From: a virus
Direction: 5' to 3' (one strand)
DNA length: 64,000 nucleotides
Virus record (IMG/VR): IMGVR_UViG_3300016665_000824
Coordinates: 1 to 64,000 of that record
Shown here: positions 1 to 63,726 of the stretch, in pieces
Position numbering within the stretch: position 1 is the first letter of the stretch
Layout: each line of letters opens with the position of its first letter
The notes under the pieces: model-generated
Seen by the model: the letters and a program-made list of their open reading frames with translations, nothing else
What the model was told of the DNA's origin: nothing
Databases searched by the model: none
Translations under genes and position numbers: made by a program

Positions 1-252
1 TGCTTTTTTTATTGCCTTGTTTTTTTGTTTTTTTGTCCAAAAAGGTCAACTTTTTGAGGCTAGGATCACTTAGATCTTTCCTTATGGATCAAAAATTCAT
101 TGCCTGTGACTTCACCCGATCGCAGGCAAAATAAATGTACCTATAGATAATCAGGAGGTGATTTTATTCACGACATAGGGTGGCTTAAGCAGTATGCACC
201 CGAACTGCTTAAGCTTTATCAGGAAGTAGCGCAAGATCAATCTCCAGAATAC

Positions 253-462
253 TTGTATGACAGAGATATTCTGATCCCGCCTTCAATCGATACGGGTTGG
301 AAAGTGCTGACAAGCGATCGCCAGTTCAAGCTGTTTACTGGCACACTTGAAGCTTGCCAAAATTATGTGAGTTCGCTAGATCGATCTCAACCTTTAATCT
401 TGAGGGATGGTAGCGGCGATCGCCATATCGTCCCGTTCAAAATCATCATCACCCAAAGCTAA
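253..462 (+). CDS. hypothetical small protein
   Basis: 69-codon ORF with TTG start; frame is open back to 151 and an AGGAGG lies at about 153-158, so true start uncertain. Confidence 0.4.
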   Translation: MYDRDILIPPSIDTGWKVLTSDRQFKLFTGTLEACQNYVSSLDRSQPLILRDGSGDRHIVPFKIIITQS

Positions 463-552
463 CCCGTGAGTCCCGTGCGATCTACGGGTTGGCTTTTGTT
501 TGTCGCTGTTGCCGAGGCGTAGATGATCGGGTTTTTACTGGAGGCTGTTGCC

Positions 553-723
553 ATGACTATTAAAGAACTACATGAAAAGCTAAGATCCATCCAAAAGGAT
601 CTTTGGCAAAGTGAAGATCCAGAAGCTCCTTATTATGTGGAGCCTAAAAAAGCAGATCCCTCTTTGGCAGATCGTTTGTGCGATCAAGCCAACGAACGGT
701 ATTACGACTGTTTTACTGGTTAG
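553..723 (+). CDS. hypothetical small protein
   Basis: ORF; ATG at 553 preceded by GGAGG about 9 nt upstream (longer version from 523 possible). Confidence 0.5.
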   Translation: MTIKELHEKLRSIQKDLWQSEDPEAPYYVEPKKADPSLADRLCDQANERYYDCFTG

Positions 724-866
724 ACTTCAAACAATATCTACCAAACCCCTCAAGCTAGCTCTGGCTATAGCTTCTGGGGTTTCTTTAGATATTGCTATTT
801 ATTAGACTTTGGGTTTTACCCCATGTACCATAAGGGGCGTTACTCGCGATAAGAGATGGAGTTTTT

Positions 867-1169
867 GTGTTAGTTAAAAAAGAATATGCAAACGGCTCAA
901 CCGCGGTGTGGGTACAAGGGGTTGAGAAACCTCTCCGTATTGGCAAATCGATTCGCCAGCATTTCGGGGAAAACAGATCACTTGAGGATCTGCCAGATGG
1001 ATGGGAGTCGGATTTCCCTATCGACTACCAAATCACGAAATACGACTCGGATCTCCCTTGCTACTGTCATGAAGTCGAGATCGATCTTGACGGCTTAAAA
1101 GTGTCTGGCTTTATTGTAGGAGACCACGGCATAAGGACGGGAGCACACCCTATTCTAAAACTAGCCTAA
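867..1169 (+). CDS. hypothetical protein
   Basis: 100-codon ORF, GTG start with purine-rich SD-like sequence upstream. Confidence 0.5.
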   Translation: MLVKKEYANGSTAVWVQGVEKPLRIGKSIRQHFGENRSLEDLPDGWESDFPIDYQITKYDSDLPCYCHEVEIDLDGLKVSGFIVGDHGIRTGAHPILKLA

Positions 1170-1171
1170 CT

Positions 1172-1216
1172 TTTGTGGCAATATTGACGCAATCTTGCTA
1201 TAATATTGCCACAAAA
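1172..1216. promoter_or_regulatory. perfect 15-bp inverted repeat (TTTTGTGGCAATATT / AATATTGCCACAAAA) with 16-nt spacer containing a TATAAT hexamer; operator-like or terminator hairpin
   Basis: read directly in the intergenic gap between ORFs ending 1169 and starting 1233; arms contain the TTTGTGG/CCACAAA motif seen at other control regions. Confidence 0.5.
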
Positions 1217-1232
1217 CTAAGTTTCGAGCCTC

Positions 1233-1526
1233 ATGAAAATACACACAAACCTCAACCTGACTCTTTGCACTTACGAGAATGCTATTGAGCAGGTCGGGAT
1301 TGAATATCACAAAGCTACGCGATCGCATGGATTCTTTAGCTCCCCCCATGAGCTTAAAGCCGTGCTAGAGGAAGAATTAGATGAGTTTTGGGATTCGGTA
1401 AAAGCCAATGACCCCGATCCTCAAGAACTTATTCAAATTGCTGCTACCGCGATCGCTGGAGTTGTCTGGCTATCGCGCAAAGCATCCCAAGAACTAGAAC
1501 TAACTAGAACTAAAAAAGAAGGGTAA
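1233..1526 (+). CDS. hypothetical protein; weak resemblance to MazG-like all-alpha NTP pyrophosphohydrolase (EEELDE motif)
   Basis: 97-codon ORF; acidic EExxE/D cluster followed by a hydrophobic helix; motif-level only. Confidence 0.45.
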   Translation: MKIHTNLNLTLCTYENAIEQVGIEYHKATRSHGFFSSPHELKAVLEEELDEFWDSVKANDPDPQELIQIAATAIAGVVWLSRKASQELELTRTKKEG

Positions 1527-1529
1527 CAC

Positions 1530-1802
1530 ATGAGTAAAAAGCTCGCCTACAATATCTTCACCGAAGAGATGAATGATGCCTTACACGCTATGGAACCCCA
1601 CTTTCTAGCCGTGCTCCCCTTGTTAAACCCTTCTTACGATCCTAATGCTGCTCTTGAGCGAAAACAAGAAGAAGAGAAGGAGCGCCAGTTATATATTACG
1701 GCTGTAGACAACCTCAAAAAGAGGGGCGTACACCGTACTATGTCGGTCATGTCTGATGAATTTGAGGATTTGATCGACGCAGAGATGGATAGCTTAAGAT
1801 AG
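1530..1802 (+). CDS. hypothetical protein
   Basis: 90-codon ORF starting 4 nt after the previous stop. Confidence 0.55.
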   Translation: MSKKLAYNIFTEEMNDALHAMEPHFLAVLPLLNPSYDPNAALERKQEEEKERQLYITAVDNLKKRGVHRTMSVMSDEFEDLIDAEMDSLR

Positions 1803-1901
1803 CTGCCACAATAATCTTTTGAATCACAGTAGAGCAAGCAAGAGGCTTTGCTGTGGAAGTATTATGTGAATTAAATTTATTGTTATTGGAGAATTTTTGC
1901 C

Positions 1902-2114
1902 ATGACTACTATCAACAGCAACGATATCTATAAGCAGTCCGCCTTTGACGGCGGGATCTACGTCAAGCAGATTGACGTAGATTACTGGTACGCCGTCGCT
2001 GAACGCTACATGGGTAGCGGAAAAACAAAAGCAGAGGCGATCTCCTCTGCGAAGAATAACGTCGGTAACAACTTCTGGCTGGTACTGCCAGAGGAGGAGT
2101 TTATCACAGCCTAG
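1902..2114 (+). CDS. hypothetical small protein
   Basis: 70-codon ORF, ATG with GGAGAA upstream. Confidence 0.5.
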   Translation: MTTINSNDIYKQSAFDGGIYVKQIDVDYWYAVAERYMGSGKTKAEAISSAKNNVGNNFWLVLPEEEFITA

Positions 2115-2303
2115 TCACCCACACATCTGGAATGCTCATGAAAGATCATGGGCGACAGGGTTCGACTCCCTGAGTTTGTAGCGATCGCAGGTTCTTATGC
2201 CCTGCATCTAGGTTGAAGTCCTAGCGATCGCATTCCGTACATATCACGCTGGTACGGCAGCAAAAAACTATCGCCACAAGAATAATAGTGGCAGGACAGA
2301 ATC

Positions 2304-2621
2304 ATGACCGTTGTTGTAGCAGCACACAAACAAACTTATGCGACCCGCGAATACCCCTGCCACGAGCCTTTCGTGGTGGAAACCTACAGAGCCATCGCTC
2401 AGGATGGCTCTGTAGTGGGGATCTCCCCCGCAACATTCAACTCCTTCCAAGGAGATAGAGGGTATTTCCGAACCGAGCAAACAGGCTCGGAAGCCCCTGA
2501 AAGTTGGGGCACTCCCTTTGAGGAGTTCAAGGAAAGGATGATCCAGCAGGTACGCCCATGCACCTGCGGCTCTGGTGAGCCGTGGTCTTCCTGTGGAGCC
2601 AATTCGCAGTATTGCGGTTAG
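2304..2621 (+). CDS. hypothetical protein with C-terminal SEC-C-like metal-binding motif (C-x-C-G-S-G ... C-G)
   Basis: 105-codon ORF; C-terminus CTCGSGEPWSSCG resembles the SecA C-terminal zinc motif. Confidence 0.55.
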   Translation: MTVVVAAHKQTYATREYPCHEPFVVETYRAIAQDGSVVGISPATFNSFQGDRGYFRTEQTGSEAPESWGTPFEEFKERMIQQVRPCTCGSGEPWSSCGANSQYCG

Positions 2622-2627
2622 CTTCTG

Positions 2628-2653
2628 CGACATCATTCTCTTGAGTGATGTCG
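2628..2653 (+). terminator. 8-bp stem hairpin directly after the stop of ORF 2304-2621
   Basis: CGACATCA ... TGATGTCG inverted repeat; no U-tract, so weak. Confidence 0.3.
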
Positions 2654-2688
2654 TGTACTCCGATAATTCCTAAGCCTCCACGCGGCTC

Positions 2689-2706
2689 GGAGTGGGTAAC
2701 GCCAAT
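2689..2706. repeat. intergenic motif GGAGTGGGTAACGCCAAT (copy 1 of 2)
   Basis: near-identical 18-mer also at 3384-3401; both upstream of genes and preceded by CGCGG; reading frames differ, so not coding conservation. Confidence 0.5.
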
Positions 2707-2731
2707 ATAGGATCGCTCTCATCGCGGCGTA

Positions 2732-3094
2732 ATGAGCAGATATTTCTCAAAAATAATGGAGAAAAAGATGACAGTATTAACCCAAGACGGGCTAGATCCC
2801 GCGGCCATTGATCTTGCTCCCATTGGGCAAGAACTGATCTCCGCCTTTGCGGAGAATCGCGATCCTATCCTTCCCGAAGGGTGGAAAGTCTTTAGGTCTC
2901 TCAATTCCATTGCCGCCCATTATAGGGACGGCAACCCCCAAGAATGGGAGTACTTTGTTCCCGTTGTCACTCTATGGATCGGCACAGGCGAAGCTAGAAA
3001 CACTGGCTTCGTTCGCCATCCGCTTGGGACGTGCGGGTATTGCGGATACCCACATGACAACTGGGGTGAATGCCCTAGCTGTGGAGGATCGTAA
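2732..3094 (+). CDS. hypothetical Cys-rich protein (C-terminal CxxC...CxxC)
   Basis: 120-codon ORF; alternative in-frame ATGs at about 2756 and 2768; C-terminus CGYCGY...CPSCG. Confidence 0.5.
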   Translation: MSRYFSKIMEKKMTVLTQDGLDPAAIDLAPIGQELISAFAENRDPILPEGWKVFRSLNSIAAHYRDGNPQEWEYFVPVVTLWIGTGEARNTGFVRHPLGTCGYCGYPHDNWGECPSCGGS

Positions 3095-3313
3095 ATGAAA
3101 TACTCCGTAATCTGCGAAGATTCACGCCTCACTGAAGCCAAGTTTGATACTCGTGCCGAAGCTGAGGCGTGGCTTCAATCCACCGTCTACCCTGTGGGTC
3201 GGTGGATTGAAGTGTCCGACATCTGCGGATGGTGCGGACAAGACAATATCTTGTCAACTGGCGAGAGTTGTCGAGAGTCAGATGGCTGCTGCGGATACTG
3301 CGGCGCTAACTGA
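3095..3313 (+). CDS. hypothetical Cys-rich small protein
   Basis: 72-codon ORF immediately after previous stop; CGWCG ... CCGYCG motifs. Confidence 0.5.
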   Translation: MKYSVICEDSRLTEAKFDTRAEAEAWLQSTVYPVGRWIEVSDICGWCGQDNILSTGESCRESDGCCGYCGAN

Positions 3314-3383
3314 CCCTCCTGATCGCTGCCGTATCCAAACAGCGATCGCTATGCTCCACAGATCTCAAACCTTCTCGCGGTGT

Positions 3384-3401
3384 GGAGTGAGTAACGCTAA
3401 T
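3384..3401. repeat. intergenic motif GGAGTGAGTAACGCTAAT (copy 2 of 2)
   Basis: see 2689-2706. Confidence 0.5.
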
Positions 3402-3452
3402 TGAGACAATAAAAATATTAGCCGCAAAAATAATGGCGGCAAGGAGAACGTT

Positions 3453-4394
3453 ATGGAATTCGTATTGTTTGACCCCCGCCCCGCATCCTTGGCTTCCGAA
3501 CAAGCCAGAATCCTTGTTCTTCGTGAGCAAGGCTACACCATTGTCGGTGTAGAGGTTACAGTCCCCGCGCTTGCGGGATTGTGTGACGTAAACATTGACC
3601 CCCAGCACGGGACTGGGGGCGACTCTTCAATGTCAGCGATCGCCTTGATTGCCAAGCACGGAATCGACCTTATCCCCAAAGGGGCGCAAAAGGTGGCATT
3701 TGCCACCGTGCGTCCTGACTTGGACAGCTTCGGAGGGATCGCCCTCCTGTGGTGGGAGCTACAAGCTCCTTATTCTGTGCAGCAGCATAGCTCCTCGGCT
3801 ATGCGATCGCGCATTCAAGCCATTCACCTGAGCGACACGTTCGCTCGCGGGGAATGGCAACCCCGTGAGTTAGGTACGGGCGAGGATAGTTACCTCGCAG
3901 CGATCGCTCGTTGTGTGAGCGATTTTAAACTGCCGATGCGCGATCGCGTTGAAGCCGTCCAGCGCTGGCTGGAAAATGGGTTGGAGCCTATTGGCTACCG
4001 ATCCGCATACGAATTGGAGCAGACAGAAATTTCGTCTGCTCTTAACATGGGAGAGATTACTGTAGATCTCTCCGAGCGATACGGCTACCCCGCCGAGGGA
4101 AAAGTCGTAGTAGTTCAATCCCGCCATCGGGCAGGGACAACTATGGGCTATACACAGGCTCCTGTTGTAGTAGCGCTCAATCCAGCGCTCGAATTTCGGG
4201 GAGTTATGACCCGCAAGTTTACCGTCTGTCAGTACCGCACTGGCTATGTAAATCTTCCTGCTGTATTGCAGGAACTTGCCTCCCTTGAGGCTGGCTGGGG
4301 CGGTTCGCCCACGATCATCGGCTCTCCCCAAGGGTCGGATTCTAATCTGCCACTGGAAACGGTGGTGGAAATTGTGACTAAGCACCTGCTATAG
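3453..4394 (+). CDS. hypothetical protein (313 aa)
   Basis: long ORF; ATG preceded by AAGGAG 6-7 nt upstream; no domain recognised. Confidence 0.7.
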   Translation: MEFVLFDPRPASLASEQARILVLREQGYTIVGVEVTVPALAGLCDVNIDPQHGTGGDSSMSAIALIAKHGIDLIPKGAQKVAFATVRPDLDSFGGIALLWWELQAPYSVQQHSSSAMRSRIQAIHLSDTFARGEWQPRELGTGEDSYLAAIARCVSDFKLPMRDRVEAVQRWLENGLEPIGYRSAYELEQTEISSALNMGEITVDLSERYGYPAEGKVVVVQSRHRAGTTMGYTQAPVVVALNPALEFRGVMTRKFTVCQYRTGYVNLPAVLQELASLEAGWGGSPTIIGSPQGSDSNLPLETVVEIVTKHLL

Positions 4395-4397
4395 TCA

Positions 4398-4435
4398 CAA
4401 CCCTTTTAGTAAGCTTACGAATTTGCGTAGCTTAC
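4398..4435 (+). terminator. 16-bp perfect stem hairpin after ORF 3453-4394
   Basis: TTTTAGTAAGCTTACG aatttg CGTAGCTTACTAAAA read directly. Confidence 0.55.
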
Positions 4436-4475
4436 TAAAAGGTTGATTATCGTAAACATTAAATTAGTAATCATC

Positions 4476-4730
4476 ATGACAGAACAACAAAAAAATTGGC
4501 GAATTTCCATTGGTATTCATCGCGGTACGATGACGAGTCGCGACAACAATCTAGTGTACGAACACTTTGACGATCCGACAAAGCCCTTAATCTCTCTTGA
4601 GGAGTGTCGCGAGACAGCTAAAAAGTGGGAAGAAAGCTACCACTCTATGGGCTACTTCATCTGGTTTGGCACAGCCATCTCTCCAGATGGCGAACCTACA
4701 GACGTTTTGCAGGGTGCGCCATATCGTTAA
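4476..4730 (+). CDS. hypothetical protein
   Basis: ORF; ATG at 4476 chosen over upstream TTG 4443. Confidence 0.5.
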   Translation: MTEQQKNWRISIGIHRGTMTSRDNNLVYEHFDDPTKPLISLEECRETAKKWEESYHSMGYFIWFGTAISPDGEPTDVLQGAPYR

Positions 4731-4769
4731 TGGCAAATAATCAGCAAGTAAAGACAACAAGGGAAAACA

Positions 4770-5381
4770 ATGACTCACATTTATTCAATCTTTAACAACG
4801 ATCATTACGATCGCCTTCTAGAACAATTTGAATTTAAACCAAGACTCAAGCTCGCTAAGATTTCCGAGAAATATGGCTTTGAGTATTGGCTTGAGGTTCT
4901 CAAAATAGAGGTAAAAGATATCTGGTTCTTCTACCTCTTCGACGAGGCACTCGCCTATCACTGGTGCTCTCCGCAGACGTATCATGCTCTTGGGTATGTG
5001 GGATGCTGGTATGACGTAAACTCGCTAGTAGTCCCCCATACTATTACTCGTGACGGGGTGATTCTTGCTAACGGCGGAACTGTTCACCCAGAGTATCTTG
5101 AAGACGGAGAATTCCGATACCACAACTGGTTTGAAGATCAAATAGAAGTATCTGGCGCTGATAATGACGGGAACGCAGAGAGATCTATTCTCATCCATGA
5201 TTTTGCCACTCACGAAGGCGAGTTTTCGTTAGAAGAGCTTGGCGTTGACCAGCAAGATATCGAGTGTTTAACAGCCGCCGAGGTGCTATCAAAAGCCTAC
5301 GAAGCGGTGCTTGAGTATCGTAATGGATGGGGGCACGAAAGTTTGTTTAACTTATTCGAGAAGGAGGCGATCGCTGTATGA
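4770..5381 (+). CDS. hypothetical protein (203 aa)
   Basis: ORF with protein-like composition; no domain recognised. Confidence 0.6.
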   Translation: MTHIYSIFNNDHYDRLLEQFEFKPRLKLAKISEKYGFEYWLEVLKIEVKDIWFFYLFDEALAYHWCSPQTYHALGYVGCWYDVNSLVVPHTITRDGVILANGGTVHPEYLEDGEFRYHNWFEDQIEVSGADNDGNAERSILIHDFATHEGEFSLEELGVDQQDIECLTAAEVLSKAYEAVLEYRNGWGHESLFNLFEKEAIAV

Positions 5382-5569
5382 CTGACGCAGAAAGAATTGA
5401 GTTGCTAGAAAAACAGGTTGCCGAGCTTCAAGAGTTTGCGCGATCGCTTGTTGCTGAACTTAAATACGCCTATGTCAATCTCGAAAGCGACCGCACCTCC
5501 TACCTAGTAATGGAGAAGGATTACCTTTTCCAAGAAAAAGTTGAAACCTTTTCTAAGGAACCCGAATAG
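5378..5569 (+). CDS. hypothetical small coiled-coil-like protein
   Basis: ATGA start/stop overlap with upstream gene. Confidence 0.55.
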   Translation: MTDAERIELLEKQVAELQEFARSLVAELKYAYVNLESDRTSYLVMEKDYLFQEKVETFSKEPE

Positions 5570-5636
5570 GTGCGCTACATGAATCTCTGCTGCCTGTCGT
5601 GTCTGGTGGGCTGACTACGAACAACCAAACAAACCG

Positions 5637-5670
5637 AAAGCCACTGACTTCATATGGAAACAGTGGCTTT
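5637..5670 (+). terminator. hairpin (10-bp stem) followed by T-rich tract
   Basis: AAAGCCACTG ... CAGTGGCTTT then cttgtgc, downstream of ORF ending 5569. Confidence 0.5.
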
Positions 5671-5705
5671 CTTGTGCAAACAAATATTTACAGGAGAAAT
5701 CTATC

Positions 5706-5960
5706 ATGGCTAGTTACATTGTGTCCGTCGGCTCCAATAAGGAGCTAATCGTTCGCGCTCGTAATGCGGATCACGCAAACGAGAAGGCAGAATTGCGTCT
5801 TCTCCGTAGTGGCGATCGCTTAAACCCTGTACTCCCCCATCTAACTCGCAGGGTGTCCGAAGTCGAAGCCTTCAAGCTTCAGGTGTCAGGATACCTCGAC
5901 GACGTTGCCGAGGAAATCGAGGATCTTCTCGACGAAATCGGAGGTGAGTACGCATGGTAG
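5706..5960 (+). CDS. hypothetical protein
   Basis: ORF; AGGAG about 9 nt upstream of ATG. Confidence 0.55.
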   Translation: MASYIVSVGSNKELIVRARNADHANEKAELRLLRSGDRLNPVLPHLTRRVSEVEAFKLQVSGYLDDVAEEIEDLLDEIGGEYAW

Positions 5961-6166
5961 TCGCCACCATGTCAGATCGCGCCGCCCTCTTGGTTGGCGA
6001 TGTCTCCGACAGAGTCCTAAGTCAACTTCGACTCTACGGACTAGCGCCACAAGTCCAACAGGATTTGTGGGGATATAGACGCGAGTTTGTGGTAATATTG
6101 AACGATTCAGATCGGAAAGCCGCCTTTGCGATCGCCTGCAATAATCTCAAAATCCAAGTCAAATAA
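5954..6166 (+). CDS. hypothetical protein
   Basis: ORF overlapping previous stop by 7 nt. Confidence 0.5.
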   Translation: MVVATMSDRAALLVGDVSDRVLSQLRLYGLAPQVQQDLWGYRREFVVILNDSDRKAAFAIACNNLKIQVK

Positions 6167-6171
6167 TCAAT

Positions 6172-6204
6172 CGCCAAAGATCGCGGTCTAGGCAATCTTT
6201 GGCG
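6172..6204 (+). terminator. 10-bp stem hairpin after ORF 5954-6166
   Basis: CGCCAAAGAT ... ATCTTTGGCG; no U-tract. Confidence 0.3.
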
Positions 6205-6226
6205 CGTCCACATACCTGCAAAGAAT

Positions 6227-6478
6227 ATGAAGAACAGCATTAATTATTACATGAGTGAGGTCACAGCACCTCCTGAGATTGAAAGCTTAATGAGGGGCTT
6301 GGATCTCTATGATTTATCCGAGTTGATCCGATCCTTAGCCGAGGCGATCGCTACAAAGTATTTTGAGTTGCACAACAGAAACCTGTCTTACTCACCCGAA
6401 ATCGCTGACTGGCTTCGAGTTCAATCCTGCGACACATGGGTTCGGGTATTGCGCTGGCTAGCAATGGAGGTGATTTAG
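6227..6478 (+). CDS. hypothetical protein
   Basis: 83-codon ORF. Confidence 0.5.
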   Translation: MKNSINYYMSEVTAPPEIESLMRGLDLYDLSELIRSLAEAIATKYFELHNRNLSYSPEIADWLRVQSCDTWVRVLRWLAMEVI

Positions 6479-6790
6479 GTGAAGTTCACTCCATTGCTAC
6501 TGTCCCTAGCCCTGTTCCCTGCCCCCACATGGGCAACAAAAAACATCAATACCCCCATTGAAAGTCAGCCCTGTACGACTATCGCCATTCCAAACGGAGG
6601 AACAGCTTGTGTGCCTCCGAAGGTGTCGCAGCGATTCAATGCGGCTCCTCGGATTGTCAAGCTGGGAGACACGATTCGCACTTATTACGAGACAAATGCT
6701 CGCCGTATCTGTCATGGATGGGGTGGTACTTATATCATGCCTCGCCCTGACGAGGAGCGAGCTTGGGATTGTTTCAAGGTTCAAGATTAG
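6479..6790 (+). CDS. small secreted Cys-containing protein (predicted N-terminal signal peptide)
   Basis: GTG start with GGAGG upstream; N-terminus MKFTPLLLSLALFPAPTWA is signal-peptide-like; 4 Cys in mature part. Confidence 0.55.
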   Translation: MKFTPLLLSLALFPAPTWATKNINTPIESQPCTTIAIPNGGTACVPPKVSQRFNAAPRIVKLGDTIRTYYETNARRICHGWGGTYIMPRPDEERAWDCFKVQD

Positions 6791-6803
6791 AGGTTATTAG
6801 GGT

Positions 6804-7199
6804 ATGCACGAAATCAAATTTATAAGAAACCCTCTGTCTTCCAAAGACGAGAATGATTGGCAAAACACAGCCCACGAATGGCTATTAACTCTCAACGGAG
6901 TATCTTTTCGGTATTACACAGGTATAGGACATCGAACTCCACAAATGTCCTATACAGCTTCTCTTGTGGAGATCTTAAGAAGATCAAAACCTGTCACCCC
7001 AAAACTCGAAGATATTCTTGAGAGCCTTCGACTCGACGCAAGCGCAAGACTCATGTCCTTTCAAGACTGGTGTGATGAATTTGGCTACGACCAAGACTCA
7101 ATAAAAGCGTTAAACCTTTACACGCAATGTTCCAATACTTGGGATTTGCTTAAGAGGGCTGGGGTAGATCCACGAATTGTAAACACAGAGGAGGGCTAA
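6804..7199 (+). CDS. hypothetical protein
   Basis: 131-codon ORF. Confidence 0.55.
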   Translation: MHEIKFIRNPLSSKDENDWQNTAHEWLLTLNGVSFRYYTGIGHRTPQMSYTASLVEILRRSKPVTPKLEDILESLRLDASARLMSFQDWCDEFGYDQDSIKALNLYTQCSNTWDLLKRAGVDPRIVNTEEG

Positions 7200-16748: not shown

Positions 16749-16864
16749 ATGAATTGACTTTTGAGCGCGATCGCTGCCATAATACTCCCACAAACTTATG
16801 TTAAATCGAATATTACTGGCAGGCGATCGCCTTAGCCTTGCTTTGAAAAACTTAGGAGAATCTT

Positions 16865-22323: not shown

Positions 22324-22363
22324 AATACGTCACAGATCTAATTAGATCTGTGACGTATTTTTG
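22324..22363 (+). terminator. strong intrinsic terminator: 36-nt perfect palindrome (16-bp stem) followed by a T5 run
   Basis: AATACGTCACAGATCTAATTAGATCTGTGACGTATT + TTTT read directly. Confidence 0.75.
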
Positions 22364-22397
22364 TGGTAGTATTAATTCAAAGAATTTTCAAAAACCT

Positions 22398-22541
22398 ATG
22401 AAAATAACACAAAAAGCCCTTAGCTCAGCGCAAAAGCGGCAGAGGCGGCTATGTGCGAAACGCGCTGAGGAGCTGGCGAAGATTCCAACACCAGAGCTAA
22501 TCCCGATGGCTGCTAAAGCTAAGGAGTATTTCGATGTATGA
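22398..22541 (+). CDS. hypothetical small basic protein (47 aa)
   Basis: ATG 22398 chosen because track start 22350 lies inside the terminator hairpin. Confidence 0.4.
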   Translation: MKITQKALSSAQKRQRRLCAKRAEELAKIPTPELIPMAAKAKEYFDV

Positions 22542-24565: not shown

Positions 24566-24895
24566 ATGCTAGACCCAAAAACTTTAGAGCAAATCAAGCA
24601 GACATCTACCGCCGCCCAGCAAGTCCCAAAAGTCATTGCAATTGAAATCGGAATTGGATTTCGTTTTGGTAAGGTTGTTGTAGGCTCTCCAACTGAGAAG
24701 GAGCTTATTAAGGACTTGTCAACCCAGCTTGAGTGGGACTACAAGGAAGGAGGAACAACAGATGTTGAAGTGATGTACCGAACTCTGTGCGAGTTTAAAA
24801 ATCCTGAAGATGCCGTTTCCGTAGGAGATGCTATTAAGCGGGATCTTACAAGTAAAGGATATCAAATCAAGTCGAAAGACAAGACCTACCAATAA
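24566..24895 (+). CDS. hypothetical protein
   Basis: ATG after GGAGG; last + strand gene before the convergent terminator. Confidence 0.6.
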   Translation: MLDPKTLEQIKQTSTAAQQVPKVIAIEIGIGFRFGKVVVGSPTEKELIKDLSTQLEWDYKEGGTTDVEVMYRTLCEFKNPEDAVSVGDAIKRDLTSKGYQIKSKDKTYQ

Positions 24896-24896
24896 C

Positions 24897-24924
24897 AAAA
24901 GCCCGTCAATATTGACGGGCTTTT
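24897..24924. terminator. bidirectional intrinsic terminator between convergent gene blocks
   Basis: AAAA GCCCGTCAATATTGACGGGC TTTT: 20-nt perfect palindrome flanked by A4 and T4. Confidence 0.7.
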
Positions 24925-24942
24925 GTGCTATTCAGATCAGAA

Positions 24943-36409: not shown

Positions 36410-36455
36410 ATCAAAAAGGCGATCGCTTTATTTAATGTGCGATCGCCTTTTTGAT
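36410..36455 (-). terminator. 17-bp perfect stem hairpin built from two HIP1 sites (attenuator/terminator candidate)
   Basis: ATCAAAAAGGCGATCGC ... GCGATCGCCTTTTTGAT between the 80-aa and 483-aa genes. Confidence 0.45.
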
Positions 36456-36472: not shown

Positions 36473-36715
36473 TTAGGAAGCCTTGAGACCCTCCAATACG
36501 ATCTGAGATTCTTCGAGCATCTGACGATCGCCTGTTCGCTGGCAGATATAAAAATAGCTGTCAGCATCATAATCATATAAACGCCGCTTGATCGTATAAG
36601 ACTTATTGGCGTACAAAATCCTTGTTCCTAGTTGGTATTTGGGAATTCCAATCGCGTAGCTTGCACTTTTTGCTGTCATATTGTGTTCGTGGGGATATCG
36701 CCACAAATCTACCAC
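36473..36715 (-). CDS. hypothetical small protein (80 aa; 68 aa if ATG 36679 is used)
   Basis: GTG start lies inside the CCACAAA motif pair; internal ATG may be the real start. Confidence 0.45.
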   Translation of the reverse strand: MVDLWRYPHEHNMTAKSASYAIGIPKYQLGTRILYANKSYTIKRRLYDYDADSYFYICQRTGDRQMLEESQIVLEGLKAS

Positions 36716-36718
36716 AAA
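36701..36718. promoter_or_regulatory. CCACAAA-N4-CCACAAA direct-repeat motif (operator candidate)
   Basis: same architecture at 59935-59952 and, reverse-complemented, at 63679-63696. Confidence 0.5.
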
Positions 36719-36787
36719 AATAGGTTAAAATAATTTATTCGCCGCAGCGTTGTAGCGCTCGGCGTGTGAATCACCAACCATAACTTA

Positions 36788-37321: not shown

Positions 37322-37351
37322 GGTAACAAGGACTTGAGTCCTTGTTACCTT
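37320..37351. terminator. bidirectional terminator hairpin (14-bp stem) between convergent moron and tape-measure genes
   Basis: AAGGTAACAAGGAC ttga GTCCTTGTTACCTT; both stop codons lie in or at the stem. Confidence 0.65.
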
Positions 37352-40300
37352 ACTCCGCTAGTAACACCCGCTACTCGTCTCAAGACATTATTAAGCGTGT
37401 CATTAACAGCCTTCTGGACATCATTGCCCACACCCGCCGCAGAACTAATGTTGCTTTGAGTATTGATAGCGATCGGGGCATTAACCGTAATATTTCCACT
37501 TGTACCCAGAGCCGCACCCGTAGGATTGCCCTGTTGCTGAGGAACAAGATCTTTACCGCCAAGACTACCGAAAGCCTGCGCCAATGCCTCCGCTCTTTGA
37601 AGTTGTCCTTCGTCAAGCAAGGCGATCGGCTTGTCGAGTTTCTTCTGGGCTTCCTCAAATGCCTTGTCGTCGATCTTCAATGTCACGGGGTTCTCGGAGA
37701 TTTGCTTCGACACACGGTTAAATTCCGCTTCCAGTCCTGCGGTTAAATCTTTAACCTTGAGATCTGGGGCAACCAACACCTTGGAGAAGCCTTCATCGAT
37801 TTGCTGAGTTAACTTGTCGAACGAAGACGCGATCGCCTGTTCTGGCTTTGCTTCCTCCGTAGGTTTGCCACCGTACTTAGCGTTAAGCTCCTCAAACGAG
37901 TTGGCTTGAGCAGGATACTTCTTGTTAAGCTCCTCAAAGCTGCCTGCCATGCCCTTGTCGGGATATTTCTTGGCTAACTCCTCAAAGCTAGTAGCGAACG
38001 GTGCGTTATCAGGCTTTGGTTCGGGTGCAGCCGTAAATACTCCGCCCTGCTCAACCTGCCCAAGCAATGCCGAGGTGGGGTTCTTAAACGAAGCACCGCG
38101 AACATTAACAGGTTGGCTTGCCGCAGCCACAGCATTACTTACATCCGTGGTAGTCAATGCTGCTGTACCCGTATTTTGAGTTAAGCGAGCAAGCTGCTCT
38201 CGTTGTAGGCGCTCTTGCAGCGCAGGATCTCTAGTTGCGCCAATAACATCGCCGATCGCCGTATTAGTTTCGCCTTGCTGTTTATTGGCAAGAGCTTGAC
38301 GATCATTCTTGTTGACAATCTCGTTAACCTTGGCTTCGTCGGCAATGAAACCCTTTTCTTGCTGCAATCCACCCAATTCAAGAAAGTTCTTCTCCTGTCC
38401 AAGCTTGGCTTGAGCAAGTTTAAGCTTCGCCTCTTCGGACTGGGGACGTAGTTTAACCTCCAACTCGGCGGCTTTGATAGCAGCATCCTGTGAGGCAATG
38501 TCCACCTTCTTCTTGGCGATCGCGATTTCATTTTCGACCTTCTTGCGTTCAAGCAATAGGTCACGCTTCTGGATTTCCCGCTCCAAGGACTCGGCTTCAA
38601 ACTTTTGCTGTTGCTTGAGGGAATTAAGCTTAAGAACGGCAAGTTTTTCCGCAAGAATCAGCTTTTTCTCTTCGAGTTCGAGATCGGCAAAGTTGCCCTG
38701 ACCACCTGCGGCACGGATGGCAGCTTGTTGGCGATCGTAGATCTTGTTGAGAGCAGCAAACTCTGACTCGCGTAATGCCACTGTAGACTGGGCAAGTTTA
38801 TTTGCCGACTCGGATAGGCGGCTTTGATTCTCAAGCCCCTTTTCTAGTGCGGTGAATAATAGTTTTTGACGTTCAAGCTTGAGGTTTTGCTGCTCAATCG
38901 TGACCGCATACTTTTGTGATTCCAAGACTAGGCGATCGCGCACTGCGGAAACTAATCCTTCAATCGCCGCGAGTTCGGCTTCAGCGAGCTGTTTGGATAG
39001 TTCAGCAACCTTGATTAGATTAGCGTTCTTAGTTTCCTTGCTAACACCAACGCCCTTCTTCTCAAGATCGGCGATCGCCTTCTGCTTTTGTTGTTCGAGT
39101 TGCAGCTCTAAAGTGATACTGCGTTTACGTTCGGCAGTTTCTTGAAGCTTAATTTCAGATTCAAGCTTAATTCCCGACTTGCGGAGTTGAGCTATCTGAG
39201 CAAGACGCTGAGTCTCGCCAACCTTTTCGGCGGCAAGGGTCTCCTTAATCTGTGCATCCAATCCCTTAACAAAGCGCTCGGAACGGGCTTTGGCTATTTT
39301 TGCCTCAGCGTCCTTCCGTTTGTTGTCGGCATCCTCTTCTAATCGCGCTTTCTGGGCGGCGGTAGCCTTAACTAGATCAAGCTCTTTTTTGTTTGCGTCA
39401 GCAATAGAGTTTTTCGCCAAGTTTTGACGTTCGGCATCTGGCTTTGCGATTGAGGAAAGTTGATCCCTCTTTGTCTGCAACGTCCGAAGTTCAGACTCTT
39501 TCTTGGCGATCGCGTCCTGTTCCGCCTTGATCTGTGCGGTGTACTCCGAGGAATTAAAAAATGGCGCGTCTTTTACGGTGTTGAATCGCTGTAATGTCTC
39601 CGCATTCCCAGCTTTCAGACTAGACAAGGCTTTTTCCCCATCTTCAATCTGCTTCGTAATTCCCTCTAGCTGTCCCTGAGTATCCTCTGACAACTTTAAG
39701 GTGCTATCCAAGGTTCCTTTCTGGCTCTGGAGGCTATTAAGTCTTGATTGCAACACAGCAAGCTCGTCCGTTACTTTCTTAACGTCCTCGGCAGCGTTAT
39801 CTCCCGCAACACCCGTACTTATAGACTCTTGGAGAGCCTTCTTCCTTGCCTCTGCATCTTTGATCTGTTGACTGGTATCGTCGATCTTTCCTTGCAAGAC
39901 AGGAGCTTGAGCTTCCCTGACCTGCCGTATCTTTGAAGGATCTCCAGTTGCAGCAGCTAACTGCGCTTCCGCCAACTCGCGATCGCGCTTAATCTGTTGT
40001 TTCTGCTCATTAGCGTTGGTCTCCAAGATCTGCTGTCTTGCTCTTAGAGCCTTTTGATCGGCTTCAGACTGGGCTTGAATCTTCTTCTCCTCTAATTGTC
40101 CAGAGAGGGCGATCGATTCAGACTCAGAGATTCGCCCCGTGGCGAGCAAAGCTTGAATCTGGGAAAGTTGAGCGTCATAAATAGCTATGCGGCGATCCGC
40201 CTCCTTTTTGTACGCGGCAGTAATCGCTTCTTGAGCCTTTATCTGTAAATCGCGATCGGCAGAGACATTCGTAGCTACTTTTTGAAACGCTCCCGCAACT

Positions 40301-54902: not shown

Positions 54903-54939
54903 AACAGGCGATCGCTTGATGAATTAGCGATCGCCTGTT
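54903..54939 (-). terminator. 13-bp perfect stem hairpin built from two HIP1 sites (intra-operon attenuator candidate)
   Basis: AACAGGCGATCGC ttgatgaatta GCGATCGCCTGTT. Confidence 0.45.
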
Positions 54940-59827: not shown

Positions 59828-59934
59828 TGGCTAATTCAACTTAGGTCAATGGCATTACTTTCTTGTTTTGTCAAGATGAATATTCGGTTTTATGGAAATT
59901 AGCGATCGCTTTTCTTTAAATACGCTCAATACCG

Positions 59935-59952
59935 CCACAAATCCACCACAAA
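59935..59952. promoter_or_regulatory. CCACAAA-N4-CCACAAA motif in divergent control region
   Basis: CCACAAATCCACCACAAA between the virion operon start (59827) and + strand regulator (59991). Confidence 0.5.
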
Positions 59953-59990
59953 GCCACGTTTCAATGCGAAAATCCGAGTAGAGTTACCAG

Positions 59991-62786: not shown

Positions 62787-62823
62787 TCGGTTAAGCGTGG
62801 GTAGCCACGACGCTTGTTCAAGG

Positions 62824-62862
62824 CAATAAAAAAGGAGTCCAATTGAGACTCCTTTTTTATTG
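62824..62862. terminator. bidirectional terminator (16-bp perfect stem with A6/T6 tracts) between convergent genes
   Basis: CAATAAAAAAGGAGTC caattga GACTCCTTTTTTATTG. Confidence 0.7.
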
Positions 62863-62869
62863 CTGTAGT

Positions 62870-63595
62870 TTAATCAAAGAATTTTCTAACCGCCGCTTCT
62901 ACATCCTTGTTTGGCATCGGGTAGCACCAAATCGGCATCATCCGACCATTGCAAATCCTTTCTTCTTGTTTGCCAAGAGCCTCGCAAGTAGCTTTGACAA
63001 ATTTTCCTAATGTGGTGCGGTTTTTAGCTGTTACGGGCAAACTCAAAGATTCAGCAATTTCTACGGCTCCCATCCACTTTGTCTCCGAGGCTGGAGCGAT
63101 CGCCTTGATAACAGCCATTGCGTCGTTGATCGCAACATCTACAAGCATTTGACATAAGCGAGGGTCGGAATCAGCAAGCATATCCTTGATCTCAAAGACT
63201 GACTTCGCTGTTTCGAGTGCTATTACACGAGAGGGCAATGCGGGAACAGGAGTGGGGGTAGTAGGCACTGATTGTAACAATGCCTTCGCCTTAGAGAAGG
63301 CTTCAACCAGATCGAGCTTGCTCTGAACAACGGCTACCGTGTTTCGGCTCAGGGTCATTAAAGCGGTCGCTTGGTCTTCGTTGAGTAGCGCAAATTTAGG
63401 AGGGTTCCCTGTCGCCTTTTCGGGGACTCCGATTTTAAATCGGATACCCGCGAACCTTGCTTCAATCATGTCTTGGTACTTCTTGATGTTCCGCATAAAG
63501 CTCTCGTGATCAATCCCAAGTCGCTCGGCAATCAGTCGAGAGTCAACAAGCAATTCGCCATCTTCATTGATGATTGGTACAATACTTTCGGACAT
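62870..63595 (-). CDS. phage regulatory protein, Rha/ORF6N-like (241 aa)
   Basis: N-terminus ...LLVDSRLIAERLGIDHESFMRNIKKYQDMIE... matches the Rha-type DNA-binding pattern. Confidence 0.6.
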   Translation of the reverse strand: MSESIVPIINEDGELLVDSRLIAERLGIDHESFMRNIKKYQDMIEARFAGIRFKIGVPEKATGNPPKFALLNEDQATALMTLSRNTVAVVQSKLDLVEAFSKAKALLQSVPTTPTPVPALPSRVIALETAKSVFEIKDMLADSDPRLCQMLVDVAINDAMAVIKAIAPASETKWMGAVEIAESLSLPVTAKNRTTLGKFVKATCEALGKQEERICNGRMMPIWCYPMPNKDVEAAVRKFFD

Positions 63596-63678
63596 ATAAT
63601 CTACCTTTTCTAGGTTATGTGTTACGCGATCGCACCTTCAAAAACTTGCGATCGCTATCCTTAATATTATACCTTGAT

Positions 63679-63696
63679 CTTGTGGCGATTTTGTGG
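63679..63696. promoter_or_regulatory. TTGTGG-N4-TTTGTGG motif (reverse-complement form of the CCACAAA pair) upstream of the final partial gene
   Basis: CTTGTGGCGATTTTGTGG in the gap between the Rha-like gene and ORF starting 63727. Confidence 0.45.
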
Positions 63697-63726
63697 GAGT
63701 ATTAATAAACGTCACAGGAATTTTTT

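What the first reader, a model, noticed from the sequence alone, without database searches (positions are those of the whole stretch)
1172..1216. 15-bp perfect inverted repeat enclosing a TATAAT hexamer
TTTTGTGGCAATATT-(16 nt)-AATATTGCCACAAAA lies in the gap between two early genes; the spacer contains TTGACG and TATAAT-like hexamers, although they are only 9 nt apart. The arms share the TTTGTGG/CCACAAA half-site. This could be an operator overlapping a promoter, or a long-loop terminator.
Basis: seen in the sequence. Interest (0 to 1): 0.45.

Follow-up and report, generated by a model that had tools for sequence, protein, structure and literature searches.

The report
Face-to-face phage promoter motif pair
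The inverted repeat is real and consists of two facing copies of a 14-base promoter-like signal that this uncultured cyanobacterial virus places in front of its gene blocks, wrapped around a textbook bacterial promoter; it is an ordinary kind of control region built from a motif not described before, and it is not a terminator.

Summary
A perfect 15-bp inverted repeat (1171-1185 / 1202-1216, 16-nt spacer) sits in the 63-nt gap between ORFs 867-1169 and 1233-1526. None of 200 shuffles gave an arm this long.

Each arm is a copy of TTTGTGGnnnTATT, the most intergenic-enriched non-HIP1 word in this roughly 134-kb circular cyanophage. Elsewhere the motif mostly occurs singly. It usually points at the downstream gene, lies 22-24 nt before start codons, in one case directly follows a terminator, and is kept in related phages at mosaic junctions. 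Its layout (TGTGG, then nAnTAT) is that of an extended -10 promoter, but it fits neither the generic TGnTAnnnT class nor the cyanobacterial J-box.

The spacer and right arm also hold the window's only perfect TGnTATAAT, 22 nt of leader before gene 1233. A second inverted pair elsewhere in the same genome, with 14-nt spacing, lies between two divergent genes, and each copy points at a gene.

My best reading is a transcription-initiation node of face-to-face promoters. An operator role is not excluded. A terminator is rejected: the stem is AT-rich, the loop is 16 nt, there is no U-tract, and the polarity is TTTT-stem-AAAA. This is a new member of a known kind, of modest interest.

The parts
1171..1185 (+). 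Left arm TTTTGTGGCAATATT. It contains motif copy 1 (TTTGTGGCAATATT, 1172-1185), which points right toward gene 1233. Read as an extended -10 promoter (TGTGG + CAATAT), the predicted start is near 1191.
   Evidence: PWM 22.8 bits. The start position is inferred from the geometry of -10 elements.
1186..1201 (.). 16-nt spacer GACGCAATCTTGCTAT, with an inner mini-palindrome GCAA-TC-TTGC.
1202..1216 (-). Right arm, which on the - strand reads TTTTGTGGCAATATT. This is motif copy 2, pointing left and antisense to ORF 867-1169, with a predicted start near 1196 on the - strand. It matches 15 of 16 bases of a motif copy that sits 24 nt before a 189-aa gene elsewhere in the genome (L080 3452-3467).
1196..1204 (+). 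TGcTATAAT, a perfect extended -10 element. With GTGGCA (1175-1180) 18 nt upstream it forms a sigma-70-type promoter. The predicted start is near 1211, giving a 22-nt leader to the ATG at 1233.
   Evidence: 10/12 with TG, joint-best score in 1-7000; the only TGnTATAAT in the window.
1166..1221 (.). Extended imperfect palindrome of 27 + 2 + 27 nt, 81% complementary.
   Evidence: repeat I1.
867..1169 (+). Upstream 100-aa ORFan, whose stop codon lies 1 nt before the left arm. It would be the antisense target of motif copy 2.
   Evidence: no homologue other than itself; a coding signal only in + frame 0.
1233..1526 (+). Downstream 97-aa gene of unknown function, the presumed target of the rightward promoters.
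6086..6099 (+). Motif copy TTTGTGGTAATATT, with a weaker, non-conserved copy at 6064-6077. It lies inside a conserved 70-aa ORF (5954-6166) and 127 nt before gene 6227.
16781..16794 (-). Motif copy TTTGTGGGAGTATT in a 192-nt gap, antisense to the surrounding + genes.
22360..22373 (+). Motif copy TTTGTGGTAGTATT, directly after the terminator palindrome 22324-22359 and 24 nt before the ATG at 22398.
36694..36717 (-). Double form TTGTGG-N5-TTTGTGGCGATATC, 14 nt before the ATG at 36679. It heads the leftward tail-side gene block.
59928..59951 (-). Double form TTGTGG-N5-TTTGTGGCGGTATT, heading the protease/capsid operon. It is conserved in relatives L004-L007.
63680..63703 (+). Double form TTGTGG-N5-TTTGTGGGAGTATT, 23 nt before the ATG at 63727 and divergent from the Rha-like regulator gene.
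62870..63595 (-). Rha-family winged-helix regulator. It is the only recognisable transcription regulator in the window and a candidate motif-binding protein. That role is inference only.
   Evidence: (PF09669, E = 3e-11).

Best explanation
The repeat is a transcription-initiation node, not a terminator. Each arm is one copy of the phage's signature 14-nt promoter-type motif TTTGTGGnAnTATT. The motif has the layout of an extended -10 element: TGTGG directly upstream of an nAnTAT hexamer, with no conserved -35. The two copies face each other, so their predicted starts cross (about 1191 rightward, about 1196 leftward). A third, canonical extended -10 promoter (TGcTATAAT, start about 1211) overlaps the right arm.

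Rightward initiation expresses the 97-aa gene at 1233. The leftward copy would make an RNA antisense to the upstream ORFan, or would simply compete for RNA polymerase, since the footprints overlap completely.

What is shown: the repeat exists; the motif family exists; the motif is intergenic, gene-oriented and at a set distance from start codons; it is conserved in relatives; and there is a second inverted pair in which each copy points at a gene. What is inferred: that the motif is where transcription starts, which polymerase or factor reads it, and that the leftward copy fires. The near-invariance of 11 of 14 positions suggests a motif-specific factor, phage or host, in addition to the generic polymerase contacts.
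For: The half-site recurs: TTTGTGGNNNTATT with at most 1 mismatch gives 10 matches against 1.2 expected, and 0 of 100 shuffles reach 10. TTTGTGG is the top non-HIP1 intergenic-enriched 7-mer, with 10 of 21 copies in the 8% of sequence that is intergenic (p = 1.7e-6). Seven of 9 PWM hits of at least 17 bits are intergenic (p = 6.5e-7).

The geometry fits a promoter. About 10 of 13 copies across the roughly 84 kb of this genome examined point at the adjacent downstream gene. The motif end lies 22-24 nt before the ATG at 22360, 63690, L006 8843, L007 8649, L007 5853, L075 7422, L076 9718 and L080 3467. At 22360 the motif directly follows a palindrome plus T-run whose stem shows compensatory changes in two relatives, which marks a terminator-to-promoter junction.

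The motif is conserved. It is retained upstream of the protease operon in phages with 79-92% protein identity, although in L006 and L007 a different gene follows it. Homology between relatives begins or ends at the motif at the 63690 locus.

Its layout is -10-like. T(-15)G(-14) and A(-11)...T(-7) are present in about 15 of 19 strong copies, including relatives (my reading). There is no consistent -35.

A canonical promoter lies within the repeat: GTGGCA-18-TGcTATAAT scores 10/12 with TG, the joint-best score in 1-7000.

There is a paralogous pair. L080 3913-3926 (+) and 3941-3954 (-), with a 14-nt spacer, lie in an 84-bp divergent gap, and each copy points at a gene (ATG at 3958 and at 3873). 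Canonical -35/-10 promoters are not enriched in this phage, so this motif is the best promoter candidate it has. In the cyanophage Ma-LMM01, sigma-70-like promoters were reported for early, middle and late genes (PMC5780444). That is a precedent for one promoter family heading both early-type and structural blocks.
Against: There are no transcript data, so start sites are inferred only. The generic extended -10 pattern TGnTAnnnT is not enriched between genes (8 observed, 6.3 expected), and a PWM built from published J-box promoters does not pick out the motif copies (best rank 24). Ordinary host-sigma recognition therefore does not by itself explain the motif. Two operon-head copies (59941 CGGTAT, 36707 CGATAT) lack the A at -11. 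The leftward copy of the finding and the copy at 16794 have no gene to drive. The two arms are identical even at the motif's variable positions. That is expected if symmetry or a hairpin is under selection, or after a recent duplication, and it is not required for two independent promoters. The exact locus has no diverged homologue. Only identical copies exist, and homologues of gene 1233 at 45-76% identity lack the repeat. The copy at 6086 lies in a conserved coding ORF.
Confidence: 0.5

Rival explanations
1. The repeat is a palindromic operator. A phage or host DNA-binding protein binds the two TTTGTGGCAATATT half-sites and represses the TGcTATAAT promoter between them. Relative to a start at 1211, the left arm covers -40 to -26 and the right arm covers -9 to +6. 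The single copies elsewhere would be weaker or monomer sites, comparable to the dispersed asymmetric repressor sites (stoperators) of mycobacteriophage L5.
For: The dyad is perfect, and identical even at the motif's variable positions. The arms bracket the best sigma-70-type promoter. Eleven of 14 positions are conserved, more than generic polymerase contacts need. The second pair lies in a short divergent gap, a classic operator position. A Rha-family regulator is encoded divergently from a motif copy, and the genome carries ParA plus a faint ribbon-helix-helix gene.
Against: No regulator gene is adjacent; pfam, phrogs and ncbifam searches of the neighbours were all empty. The half-site centres are about 31 bp apart, and the spacer differs by 2 bp between the two pairs (16 nt against 14 nt), which fits poorly with a rigid dimer. 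Most copies are single, co-oriented with genes and at a set 22-24 nt from the ATG. One sits directly after a terminator where no other promoter fits. This rival does not exclude the best explanation, because the same bases could be both a promoter and a binding site.
Confidence: 0.25
2. The repeat acts as an RNA hairpin in read-through early mRNA from gene 867 into gene 1233. It would be a processing site (RNase III-type), a stability element or a weak attenuator, as with the stem-loops between early genes of T7 or in the PeSL elements of T4-like phages.
For: The RNA folds at -23.3 kcal/mol (+ strand) and -25.4 kcal/mol (- strand), z-scores -6.0 and -5.2. The hairpin starts 2 nt after the stop codon of gene 867. 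Other early-region gaps also hold hairpins (4402-4442, 5636-5671, 6172-6204). In the paralogous pair the three arm differences are all G.U-compatible on one strand only (that strand -31.5 kcal/mol, z -2.7; opposite strand z -0.3).
Against: The arm sequence is explained by the DNA motif, which elsewhere occurs singly without a partner. Three transitions all falling as G.U has a chance of about 1 in 8. If transcription starts at the motif, the left arm is not in the RNA. There is no Rfam match.
Confidence: 0.12
3. The repeat is a symmetric by-product with no function of its own: a scar of recombination between two copies of the promoter motif, which marks mosaic junctions in this phage group, left next to an inserted ORFan.
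For: The motif coincides with module boundaries at three loci. The upstream gene is an ORFan. Homologues of gene 1233 in other phages lack the repeat.
Against: The 15-bp arms are perfect and there is extra symmetry in the flanks and the centre. A second pair with the same design exists. The repeat is identical in an independent sample whose surrounding 1.6 kb differs at 5 mismatches and 2 gaps, although only about 0.7 differences would be expected in the 161 nt compared.
Confidence: 0.1
4. The repeat is a Rho-independent terminator with a long loop, ending the transcript of gene 867.
For: The hairpin is stable and lies immediately after a stop codon.
Against: Only 5 of 15 stem pairs are G:C, the loop is 16 nt, and no U-run follows on either strand. 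The polarity TTTT-stem-AAAA is the reverse of a terminator. The terminator scan did not report it. The phage's recognisable terminators are A-run/GC-stem/T-run (24895-24926, 62823-62863, 22324-22359, and the one spanning the window start).
Confidence: 0.03

Closest known systems
PeSL (promoter-early stem-loop) cassettes of T4-like phages (Arbiol et al. 2010, PMC2839356; Comeau et al. 2014, PMC4122927)
   Same: Both are composite intergenic elements between small early ORFans in which a sigma-70-type promoter and a stem-loop overlap; in PeSLs the stem lies between -35 and -10 or over the -10. Both are repeated through the genome and coincide with insertion, deletion and replacement junctions between close relatives.
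   Different: PeSL stems are G/C-run hairpins shown to terminate transcription, and the conserved unit is about 100 bp. Here the stem is the promoter motif itself in two orientations, is AT-rich, and has no terminator features. Only 14 nt (25 nt in the double form) are conserved. This phage shows no sign of being T4-like: the nearest database phages in a tblastn with its protease were E. coli, Salmonella and Pantoea phages at about 29% identity, and no T4 core genes were seen.
Extended -10 promoters: TGn-TATAAT, the TRTG '-16 region' of Gram-positive bacteria, and the cyanobacterial J-box GGGaAtacT read by SigJ (Gonzalez et al. 2019, PMC6495340)
   Same: In both, conserved G-containing bases sit directly upstream of an A...T hexamer, the -35 is weak or absent, and the orientation and distance to genes are fixed. 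The finding's arm GGCAATATT differs by one base from the Trichodesmium pilB J-box GGGAATATT.
   Different: A PWM built from 30 published J-boxes ranks the phage copies only 24th to beyond 6000th in the window, and its top hits are in coding sequence. The generic TGnTAnnnT pattern is not enriched between genes. The invariant TTTGT upstream and the TATT are not part of either known consensus.
Face-to-face promoters of the P2/186 developmental switches
   Same: Two promoters point at each other at short range, so their transcripts and polymerase footprints overlap. In the paralogous pair (L080 3913-3954) each promoter drives a gene on the far side, as Pe and Pc do in P2.
   Different: In P2 and 186 the two promoters differ in sequence and are controlled by known repressors (C/Cox, CI/Apl) encoded right there. 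Here both promoters are the same motif, their predicted starts are only about 4-6 nt apart, no repressor has been identified, and at the finding itself the leftward promoter faces no gene.
Dispersed asymmetric repressor sites ('stoperators') of mycobacteriophage L5 gp71 (from my own knowledge)
   Same: Both are 13-14-bp asymmetric motifs scattered in short intergenic gaps of both the early and the structural arms, oriented with transcription.
   Different: L5 has about 30 sites and a known repressor, and the sites act by blocking elongation. Here there are about 10 sites in 84 kb, mostly at the heads of gene blocks at a set distance from start codons, and no cognate protein is known.

Membership tests
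Sigma-70-type extended -10 promoter | TG at -15/-14, one base upstream of a -10 hexamer with A at -11 and T at -7 | tested here: met
   TGcTATAAT at 1196-1204. The arms read TGTGG + CAATAT. About 15 of 19 strong motif copies, relatives included, keep TG, A(-11) and T(-7).
Sigma-70-type extended -10 promoter | As a class, such elements are enriched upstream of genes | tested here: not met
   TGnTAnnnT gives 8 intergenic matches against 6.3 expected (p = 0.3). Only the specific TTTGTGG...TATT form is enriched.
Sigma-70-type extended -10 promoter | A transcription start 6-8 nt downstream of the hexamer | not testable with these tools
   No transcript data are available. Indirectly, the motif end lies 22-24 nt before the ATG at eight copies.
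Cyanobacterial J-box (SigJ/SigF extended -10) | An invariant GGG trio abutting a W-A-W-W-C/A-T hexamer, scoring high with a J-box profile | tested here: not met
   A PWM from 30 published J-boxes (PMC6495340 supplement) ranks the phage copies 24th, 47-50th, 148th, 509th and beyond 1000th. The top 20 hits are all in coding sequence.
Rho-independent terminator | A G+C-rich stem, a 3-8-nt loop, and a U-run directly after the stem | tested here: not met
   Five of 15 stem pairs are G:C, the loop is 16 nt, and the stem is followed by CTAAGTTTCG on the + strand and GTTAGGCTAG on the - strand. It was not reported by the scan.
PeSL promoter/stem-loop cassette | A sigma-70-like promoter overlapped by a stem-loop in gaps between early ORFans | tested here: met
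   compared with the Fig. 2 legend of PMC2839356.
PeSL promoter/stem-loop cassette | The stem-loop is an effective terminator, and the whole cassette of about 100 bp is repeated many times | tested here: not met
   There are no terminator features (see above). Only the 14-nt motif recurs. The full inverted design occurs twice in about 84 kb.
PeSL promoter/stem-loop cassette | Sits at insertion, deletion or replacement junctions between close relatives | tested here: inconclusive
   This holds for single and double motif copies at three loci. It cannot be tested for the inverted repeat itself, because no diverged relative covers this locus.
Palindromic repressor operator (CI/Cro-type) | A dyad-symmetric site overlapping a promoter | tested here: met
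Palindromic repressor operator (CI/Cro-type) | A cognate DNA-binding gene adjacent, and fixed half-site spacing among operators | tested here: not met
   The neighbouring genes have no DNA-binding domain hits. The spacing is 16 nt here and 14 nt in the paralogue.
DnaA box / origin iterons | TGTGGATAA, or in cyanobacteria TGTGGAAAA, clustered in an AT-rich origin | tested here: not met
   The base after TGTGG is C, T or G in every copy and never A. The copies are dispersed, not clustered.
N4-type hairpin promoter for a virion RNA polymerase | A 5-7-bp stem with a 3-nt loop, plus a giant virion RNA polymerase gene | tested here: not met
   The stem is 15 bp and the loop 16 nt. The 2811-aa virion-block ORF has no Pfam or PDB sequence match. 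A remote relationship was not tested by structure.
Protelomerase target (telRL-type palindrome) | A perfect central dyad and an adjacent protelomerase gene | tested here: not met
   The centre, GCAA-TC-TTGC, is not self-complementary. No telomere-resolvase family hit was found in the window proteins scanned.

The most novel reading that the evidence does not exclude
TTTGTGGnAnTATT is the recognition sequence of an unidentified motif-specific transcription factor or sigma-like protein. Candidates include the phage's Rha-like protein or a protein encoded in the roughly 51 kb of the genome not examined. The two inverted pairs would then be bistable face-to-face promoter switches in a 134-kb circular, ParA-carrying cyanophage or phage-plasmid. 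The same motif would double as the junction at which gene modules are exchanged between related phages.
Probability: 0.2. Interest if true: 0.55.

Novelty: new member of a known kind. Interest (0 to 1): 0.3.

Why it matters
If the reading is right, the repeat is one visible piece of the transcription grammar of an uncultured lineage of freshwater-type cyanophages with circular genomes of about 134 kb, in which almost no gene has a known function. A single 14-nt signal would mark the starts of its gene blocks, both early-type and structural. That gives a simple handle for operon prediction, for finding the factor that reads the signal, and for following how gene modules are swapped between relatives. 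The inverted pairs would be candidate switch points. In itself, though, a promoter region with dyad symmetry between two small phage genes is ordinary.

Tried and rejected
- **Terminator.** Rejected on stem composition, loop size, the absence of a U-run and the reversed A/T polarity, in contrast with the phage's own terminators.
- **Conservation at the exact locus.**
  - Three distant viral-contig homologues of gene 1233 lack the repeat upstream.
  - Five metagenomic homologues at 60-76% identity also lack it.
  - The closest relatives' contigs do not cover this region.
  - The upstream gene is an ORFan.
  - The only other copies are 100% identical, or identical across the repeat.
- **Degenerate inverted-repeat pattern.** Scans of all species genomes and of JGI metagenomes returned 5 and 14 loci. 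All were unrelated hairpins in contigs without HIP1.
- **Double-motif pattern.** The scan of viral contigs returned mostly chance hits plus the true relatives. L042 is an unrelated low-GC phage with iterons.
- **DnaA box.** Rejected because the base after TGTGG is never A.
- **Sigma-54 (GG-N10-GC).** The left arm fits this pattern, but the other copies do not, and to my knowledge cyanobacteria lack sigma-54. Dropped.
- **J-box.** Membership was tested with an independent PWM and failed.
- **N4-like hairpin promoter and virion polymerase.** The 2811-aa ORF gave no sequence match.
- **Protelomerase site.** The total length of 56 bp is suggestive, but the centre is not a perfect dyad and there is no resolvase gene.
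- **Rfam.** Nothing reached a meaningful score.
- **Known phage genomes.** No nucleotide match, and only protein matches of about 29% identity.
- **MazG-like idea for gene 1233.** Pfam, NCBIfam and PDB searches did not support it.
Full report
**Observation.** Reading the window shows TTTTGTGGCAATATT at 1171-1185 and its exact reverse complement, AATATTGCCACAAAA, at 1202-1216. They are separated by GACGCAATCTTGCTAT (16 nt). The element fills the 63-nt gap between ORF 867-1169 and ORF 1233-1526, both on the + strand. In 200 dinucleotide-preserving shuffles the longest perfect short-range inverted repeat averaged 10.4 nt and never exceeded 14, so a 15-nt arm is not chance. The symmetry continues imperfectly to 27-nt arms (1166-1192 / 1195-1221, 81% complementary). 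The spacer has its own small dyad, GCAA-TC-TTGC.

**Context.** The window is phage DNA.
- It has a block of about 65 small + strand genes (1-24.9 kb) and a block of large - strand genes (24.9-59.8 kb). The latter includes a prohead protease and a major capsid protein.
- The cyanobacterial HIP1 octamer GCGATCGC occurs 135 times, so I infer a cyanobacterial host.
- No known phage genome matches at the nucleotide level, and protein matches are only about 29% identical.
- The same sequence is found in a 134,398-bp metagenomic contig whose ends overlap by 141 nt (the assembler's k-mer). The window runs across that junction, so the genome map is circular, about 134.26 kb.
- The genome carries a ParA-type ATPase with a faint ribbon-helix-helix neighbour.
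- Inside the window, the only recognisable transcription regulator is a Rha-family winged-helix protein at 62870-63595.

**The arms are copies of a genome-wide motif.**
- The 15-mer with up to 3 mismatches occurs 12 times against 2.3 expected.
- The core TTTGTGGNNNTATT with at most 1 mismatch occurs 10 times against 1.2 expected, and 0 of 100 shuffles reach that.
- After HIP1, TTTGTGG is the word most enriched between genes: 10 of its 21 copies lie in the 8% of the window that is intergenic (p = 1.7e-6).
- Seven of 9 PWM hits of at least 17 bits are intergenic (p = 6.5e-7).
- The strong copies are 1172 (+), 1215 (-), 6086 (+), 16794 (-), 22360 (+), 59941 (-) and 63690 (+). Weaker ones are at 36707 (-) and 6064 (+).
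- Three copies carry a second TTGTGG exactly 11 bp upstream (36707, 59941, 63690). These head the tail-side block, the protease/capsid operon and a rightward gene.
- The 20 kb of the same genome flanking the window adds copies at L080 3467 (-) and 3954 (-), a 12-of-14 copy at 3913 (+), and a TTCGTGG variant abutting the ParA start.

**The motif behaves like a promoter.**
- About 10 of 13 copies point at the adjacent downstream gene.
- The motif end lies 22-24 nt before the start codon in eight copies: 22360 (24 nt), 63690 (23), L006 8843, L007 8649 and L007 5853 (22 each), L075 7422 and L076 9718 (24 each), and L080 3467 (24). It lies 14 nt before the start codon at 36707.
- At 22360 the motif follows directly on the perfect 36-bp palindrome 22324-22359 plus a T-run. 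In two relatives the palindrome has changed on both sides while staying a palindrome: GTCACAG...CTGTGAC becomes CCACAG...CTGTGG in L075 and CACCGATC...GATCGGTG in L076. This is a terminator followed at once by the signal for the next gene, with no room for any other promoter.
- The motif is kept upstream of the protease operon in four related viral contigs (79-92% protein identity), although in L006 and L007 a different gene has been inserted right after it.
- At the 63690 locus, L007 shares sequence with the window from the motif rightward, and L004 shares it from the left up to the motif.
- The 36707 copy exists only in the window's phage, next to an inserted + strand gene. The motif therefore also marks mosaic junctions.

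**Layout of the motif.** Read as T-G-T-G-G followed by the hexamer nAnTAT, the motif has TG at -15/-14 and A(-11)...T(-7). That is an extended -10 element without a conserved -35, and about 15 of 19 strong copies (relatives included) fit it (my reading). Starts would then lie about 6-7 nt after TATT, giving leaders of 16-18 nt at the closely spaced copies.

This is only an architecture, not a family assignment.
- The generic TGnTAnnnT pattern is not enriched between genes (8 against 6.3).
- Canonical -35/-10 promoters are not enriched either.
- The closest described class is the cyanobacterial J-box GGGaAtacT, an extended -10 read by the group-3 sigma factor SigJ (PMC6495340). It looks similar by eye: the arm GGCAATATT differs by one base from the Trichodesmium pilB box GGGAATATT. 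However, a PWM built from 30 published J-boxes ranks the phage copies only 24th to beyond 6000th, and its top hits are in coding sequence.
- Two operon-head copies lack the A at -11.

The near-invariance of 11 of 14 positions therefore points to a more specific reader than the generic polymerase contacts. I could not identify it.

**The finding itself.** On the + strand the left arm is a motif copy pointing at gene 1233 (predicted start about 1191). Twenty bases further on lies TGcTATAAT (1196-1204). It is the only perfect extended -10 in the window. With GTGGCA 18 nt upstream, it is the joint-best sigma-70-type match in the first 7 kb (10/12). Its predicted start, about 1211, leaves a 22-nt leader, the leader length this phage favours. 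On the - strand the right arm is a motif copy pointing left (predicted start about 1196). It matches 15 of 16 bases of the copy that sits 24 nt before a 189-aa gene at L080 3429. Leftward there is no gene. ORF 867-1169 is an ORFan but carries a coding signal only in its + frame, so a leftward transcript would be antisense to it.

**A second inverted pair supports the design.** At L080 3913-3954, TTTATGGCAATACT (+) and TTTGTGGCAGTATT (-) face each other across 14 nt, inside an 84-bp gap between two divergent small genes.
- Each copy points at a gene: the ATG at 3958 on the + strand (a zinc-ribbon-like protein) and the ATG at 3873 on the - strand (54 aa).
- A further same-strand variant lies 20 nt after the - copy, the same offset as between the left arm and TGcTATAAT in the finding.
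- This is the arrangement of face-to-face promoters known from the P2/186 switches (my own knowledge of those phages).
- The different spacing (14 nt against 16 nt) argues against a rigid dimeric protein reading both arms. It is irrelevant for two independent promoters.

**Rivals.**
- *Operator.* This is not excluded and is compatible with the above, since the same bases could be a promoter and a binding site. The perfect identity of the two arms, even at variable motif positions, favours some selection for symmetry. But no regulator is adjacent, most copies are single, and the spacing varies.
- *RNA hairpin in read-through mRNA.* This is possible. The folds are -23.3 and -25.4 kcal/mol, z about -6 and -5. 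In the paralogue the three arm differences are G.U-compatible on one strand only, though the chance of that is about 1 in 8. This reading does not explain the single copies, and Rfam has no match.
- *Terminator.* Rejected. The stem has 5 G:C of 15 pairs, the loop is 16 nt, no U-run follows on either strand, and the polarity is TTTT-stem-AAAA. The phage's terminators are A-run/GC-stem/T-run (24895-24926, 62823-62863, 22324-22359, and the one at the window start).
- *DnaA boxes, sigma-54, N4-type hairpin promoters and a protelomerase site.* All were considered and fail on defining features (see the membership table).

**Comparison with known systems and novelty.**
- The nearest described composite is the PeSL of T4-like phages. 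A PeSL is a sigma-70-type promoter overlapped by a stem-loop between early ORFans; it is repeated through the genome and sits at module junctions (PMC2839356, PMC4122927). Two defining features fail here: the stem is not a terminator, and no cassette of about 100 bp is repeated. The element therefore works somewhat like a PeSL but is not one.
- In Ma-LMM01, sigma-70-like promoters were reported for all temporal classes (PMC5780444). That is a precedent for one promoter family heading early-type and structural blocks in a freshwater cyanophage.
- The motif itself appears undescribed. No relevant paper turned up in the few literature searches made, none of which queried the motif sequence itself. 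No diverged copy of the inverted repeat exists outside this phage in the collections scanned.

I rate this a new member of a known kind: a promoter/regulatory region with dyad symmetry. The interest is modest, and lies mainly in the motif family and the two face-to-face pairs rather than in the repeat as such.

Noticed in passing
L080 3874-3957 (same genome, about 5.5 kb left of the window start): A second inverted pair of the motif (3913-3926 + and 3941-3954 -, 14-nt spacer) lies in an 84-bp gap between a 54-aa gene (- strand) and a zinc-ribbon-like gene (+ strand, ATG at 3958, earlier than the start called in the record). It has the layout of a face-to-face promoter switch.
   Followed up: partly
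window 22324-22359: A perfect 36-bp palindrome followed by a T-run. In relatives L075 and L076 both halves have changed in a compensatory way. It is a terminator placed directly before the motif copy at 22360.
   Followed up: yes
window 59815-59861: The inverted repeat AATGCCATTG...CAATGGCATT spans the start codon of the prohead protease gene. Together with an upstream TCTTGACA box it is conserved in four relatives while the flanks diverge. It may control translation or be a separate promoter.
   Followed up: no
window 6172-6204: The hairpin CGCCAAAGATCGC-N7-GCAATCTTTGGCG and its flanks (about 60 nt) are 100% identical in relative L048, although the neighbouring coding sequence is only about 80% identical.
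   Followed up: no
window 63596-63726; 59828-59990; 36680-36787: Homology between related phages begins or ends at the TTGTGG motif, and genes are inserted directly after it. The motif therefore marks mosaic junctions, as PeSLs do in T4-like phages.
   Followed up: partly
whole window: The HIP1 octamer GCGATCGC occurs 135 times, with 29 copies in the 8% of sequence that is intergenic. It is often inside terminator stems (for example 36410-36455 and 54903-54939).
   Followed up: no
window 37345-45780 (-): A 2811-aa ORF in the virion gene block has no Pfam family and no PDB sequence match.
   Followed up: partly
window 60813-62786 (+): A 657-aa protein whose residues 46-158 weakly resemble the N-terminal domain of Spo0J/ParB (E = 0.002). 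The genome also has a ParA-type ATPase with a faint RHH neighbour (L080 5089-5965), which suggests a plasmid-like partition system.
   Followed up: no
parent contig ena:ERZ27292652:k141_20893: The contig ends overlap by 141 nt and the window spans the junction, so the genome map is circular, about 134.26 kb. Identical sequence occurs in Logan assembly SRR6423794, and a 99.1% identical variant occurs in SRR27476765.
   Followed up: yes
window 12838, 13050, 19171, 19598, 20110, 21399 and others: An A/C-rich word, CAAAACAA, sits just upstream of many start codons (7 of its 10 copies are intergenic). It is probably a leader or translation-initiation signal rather than a promoter.
   Followed up: partly
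L080 5966-7228 and 7586-8409 (left of the window): Two long stretches without called genes lie next to parA. They contain a roughly 43-nt direct repeat (L049 1058-1100 and 1155-1197) and further TTTTGTGGC words. This may be an origin or centromere region.
   Followed up: no
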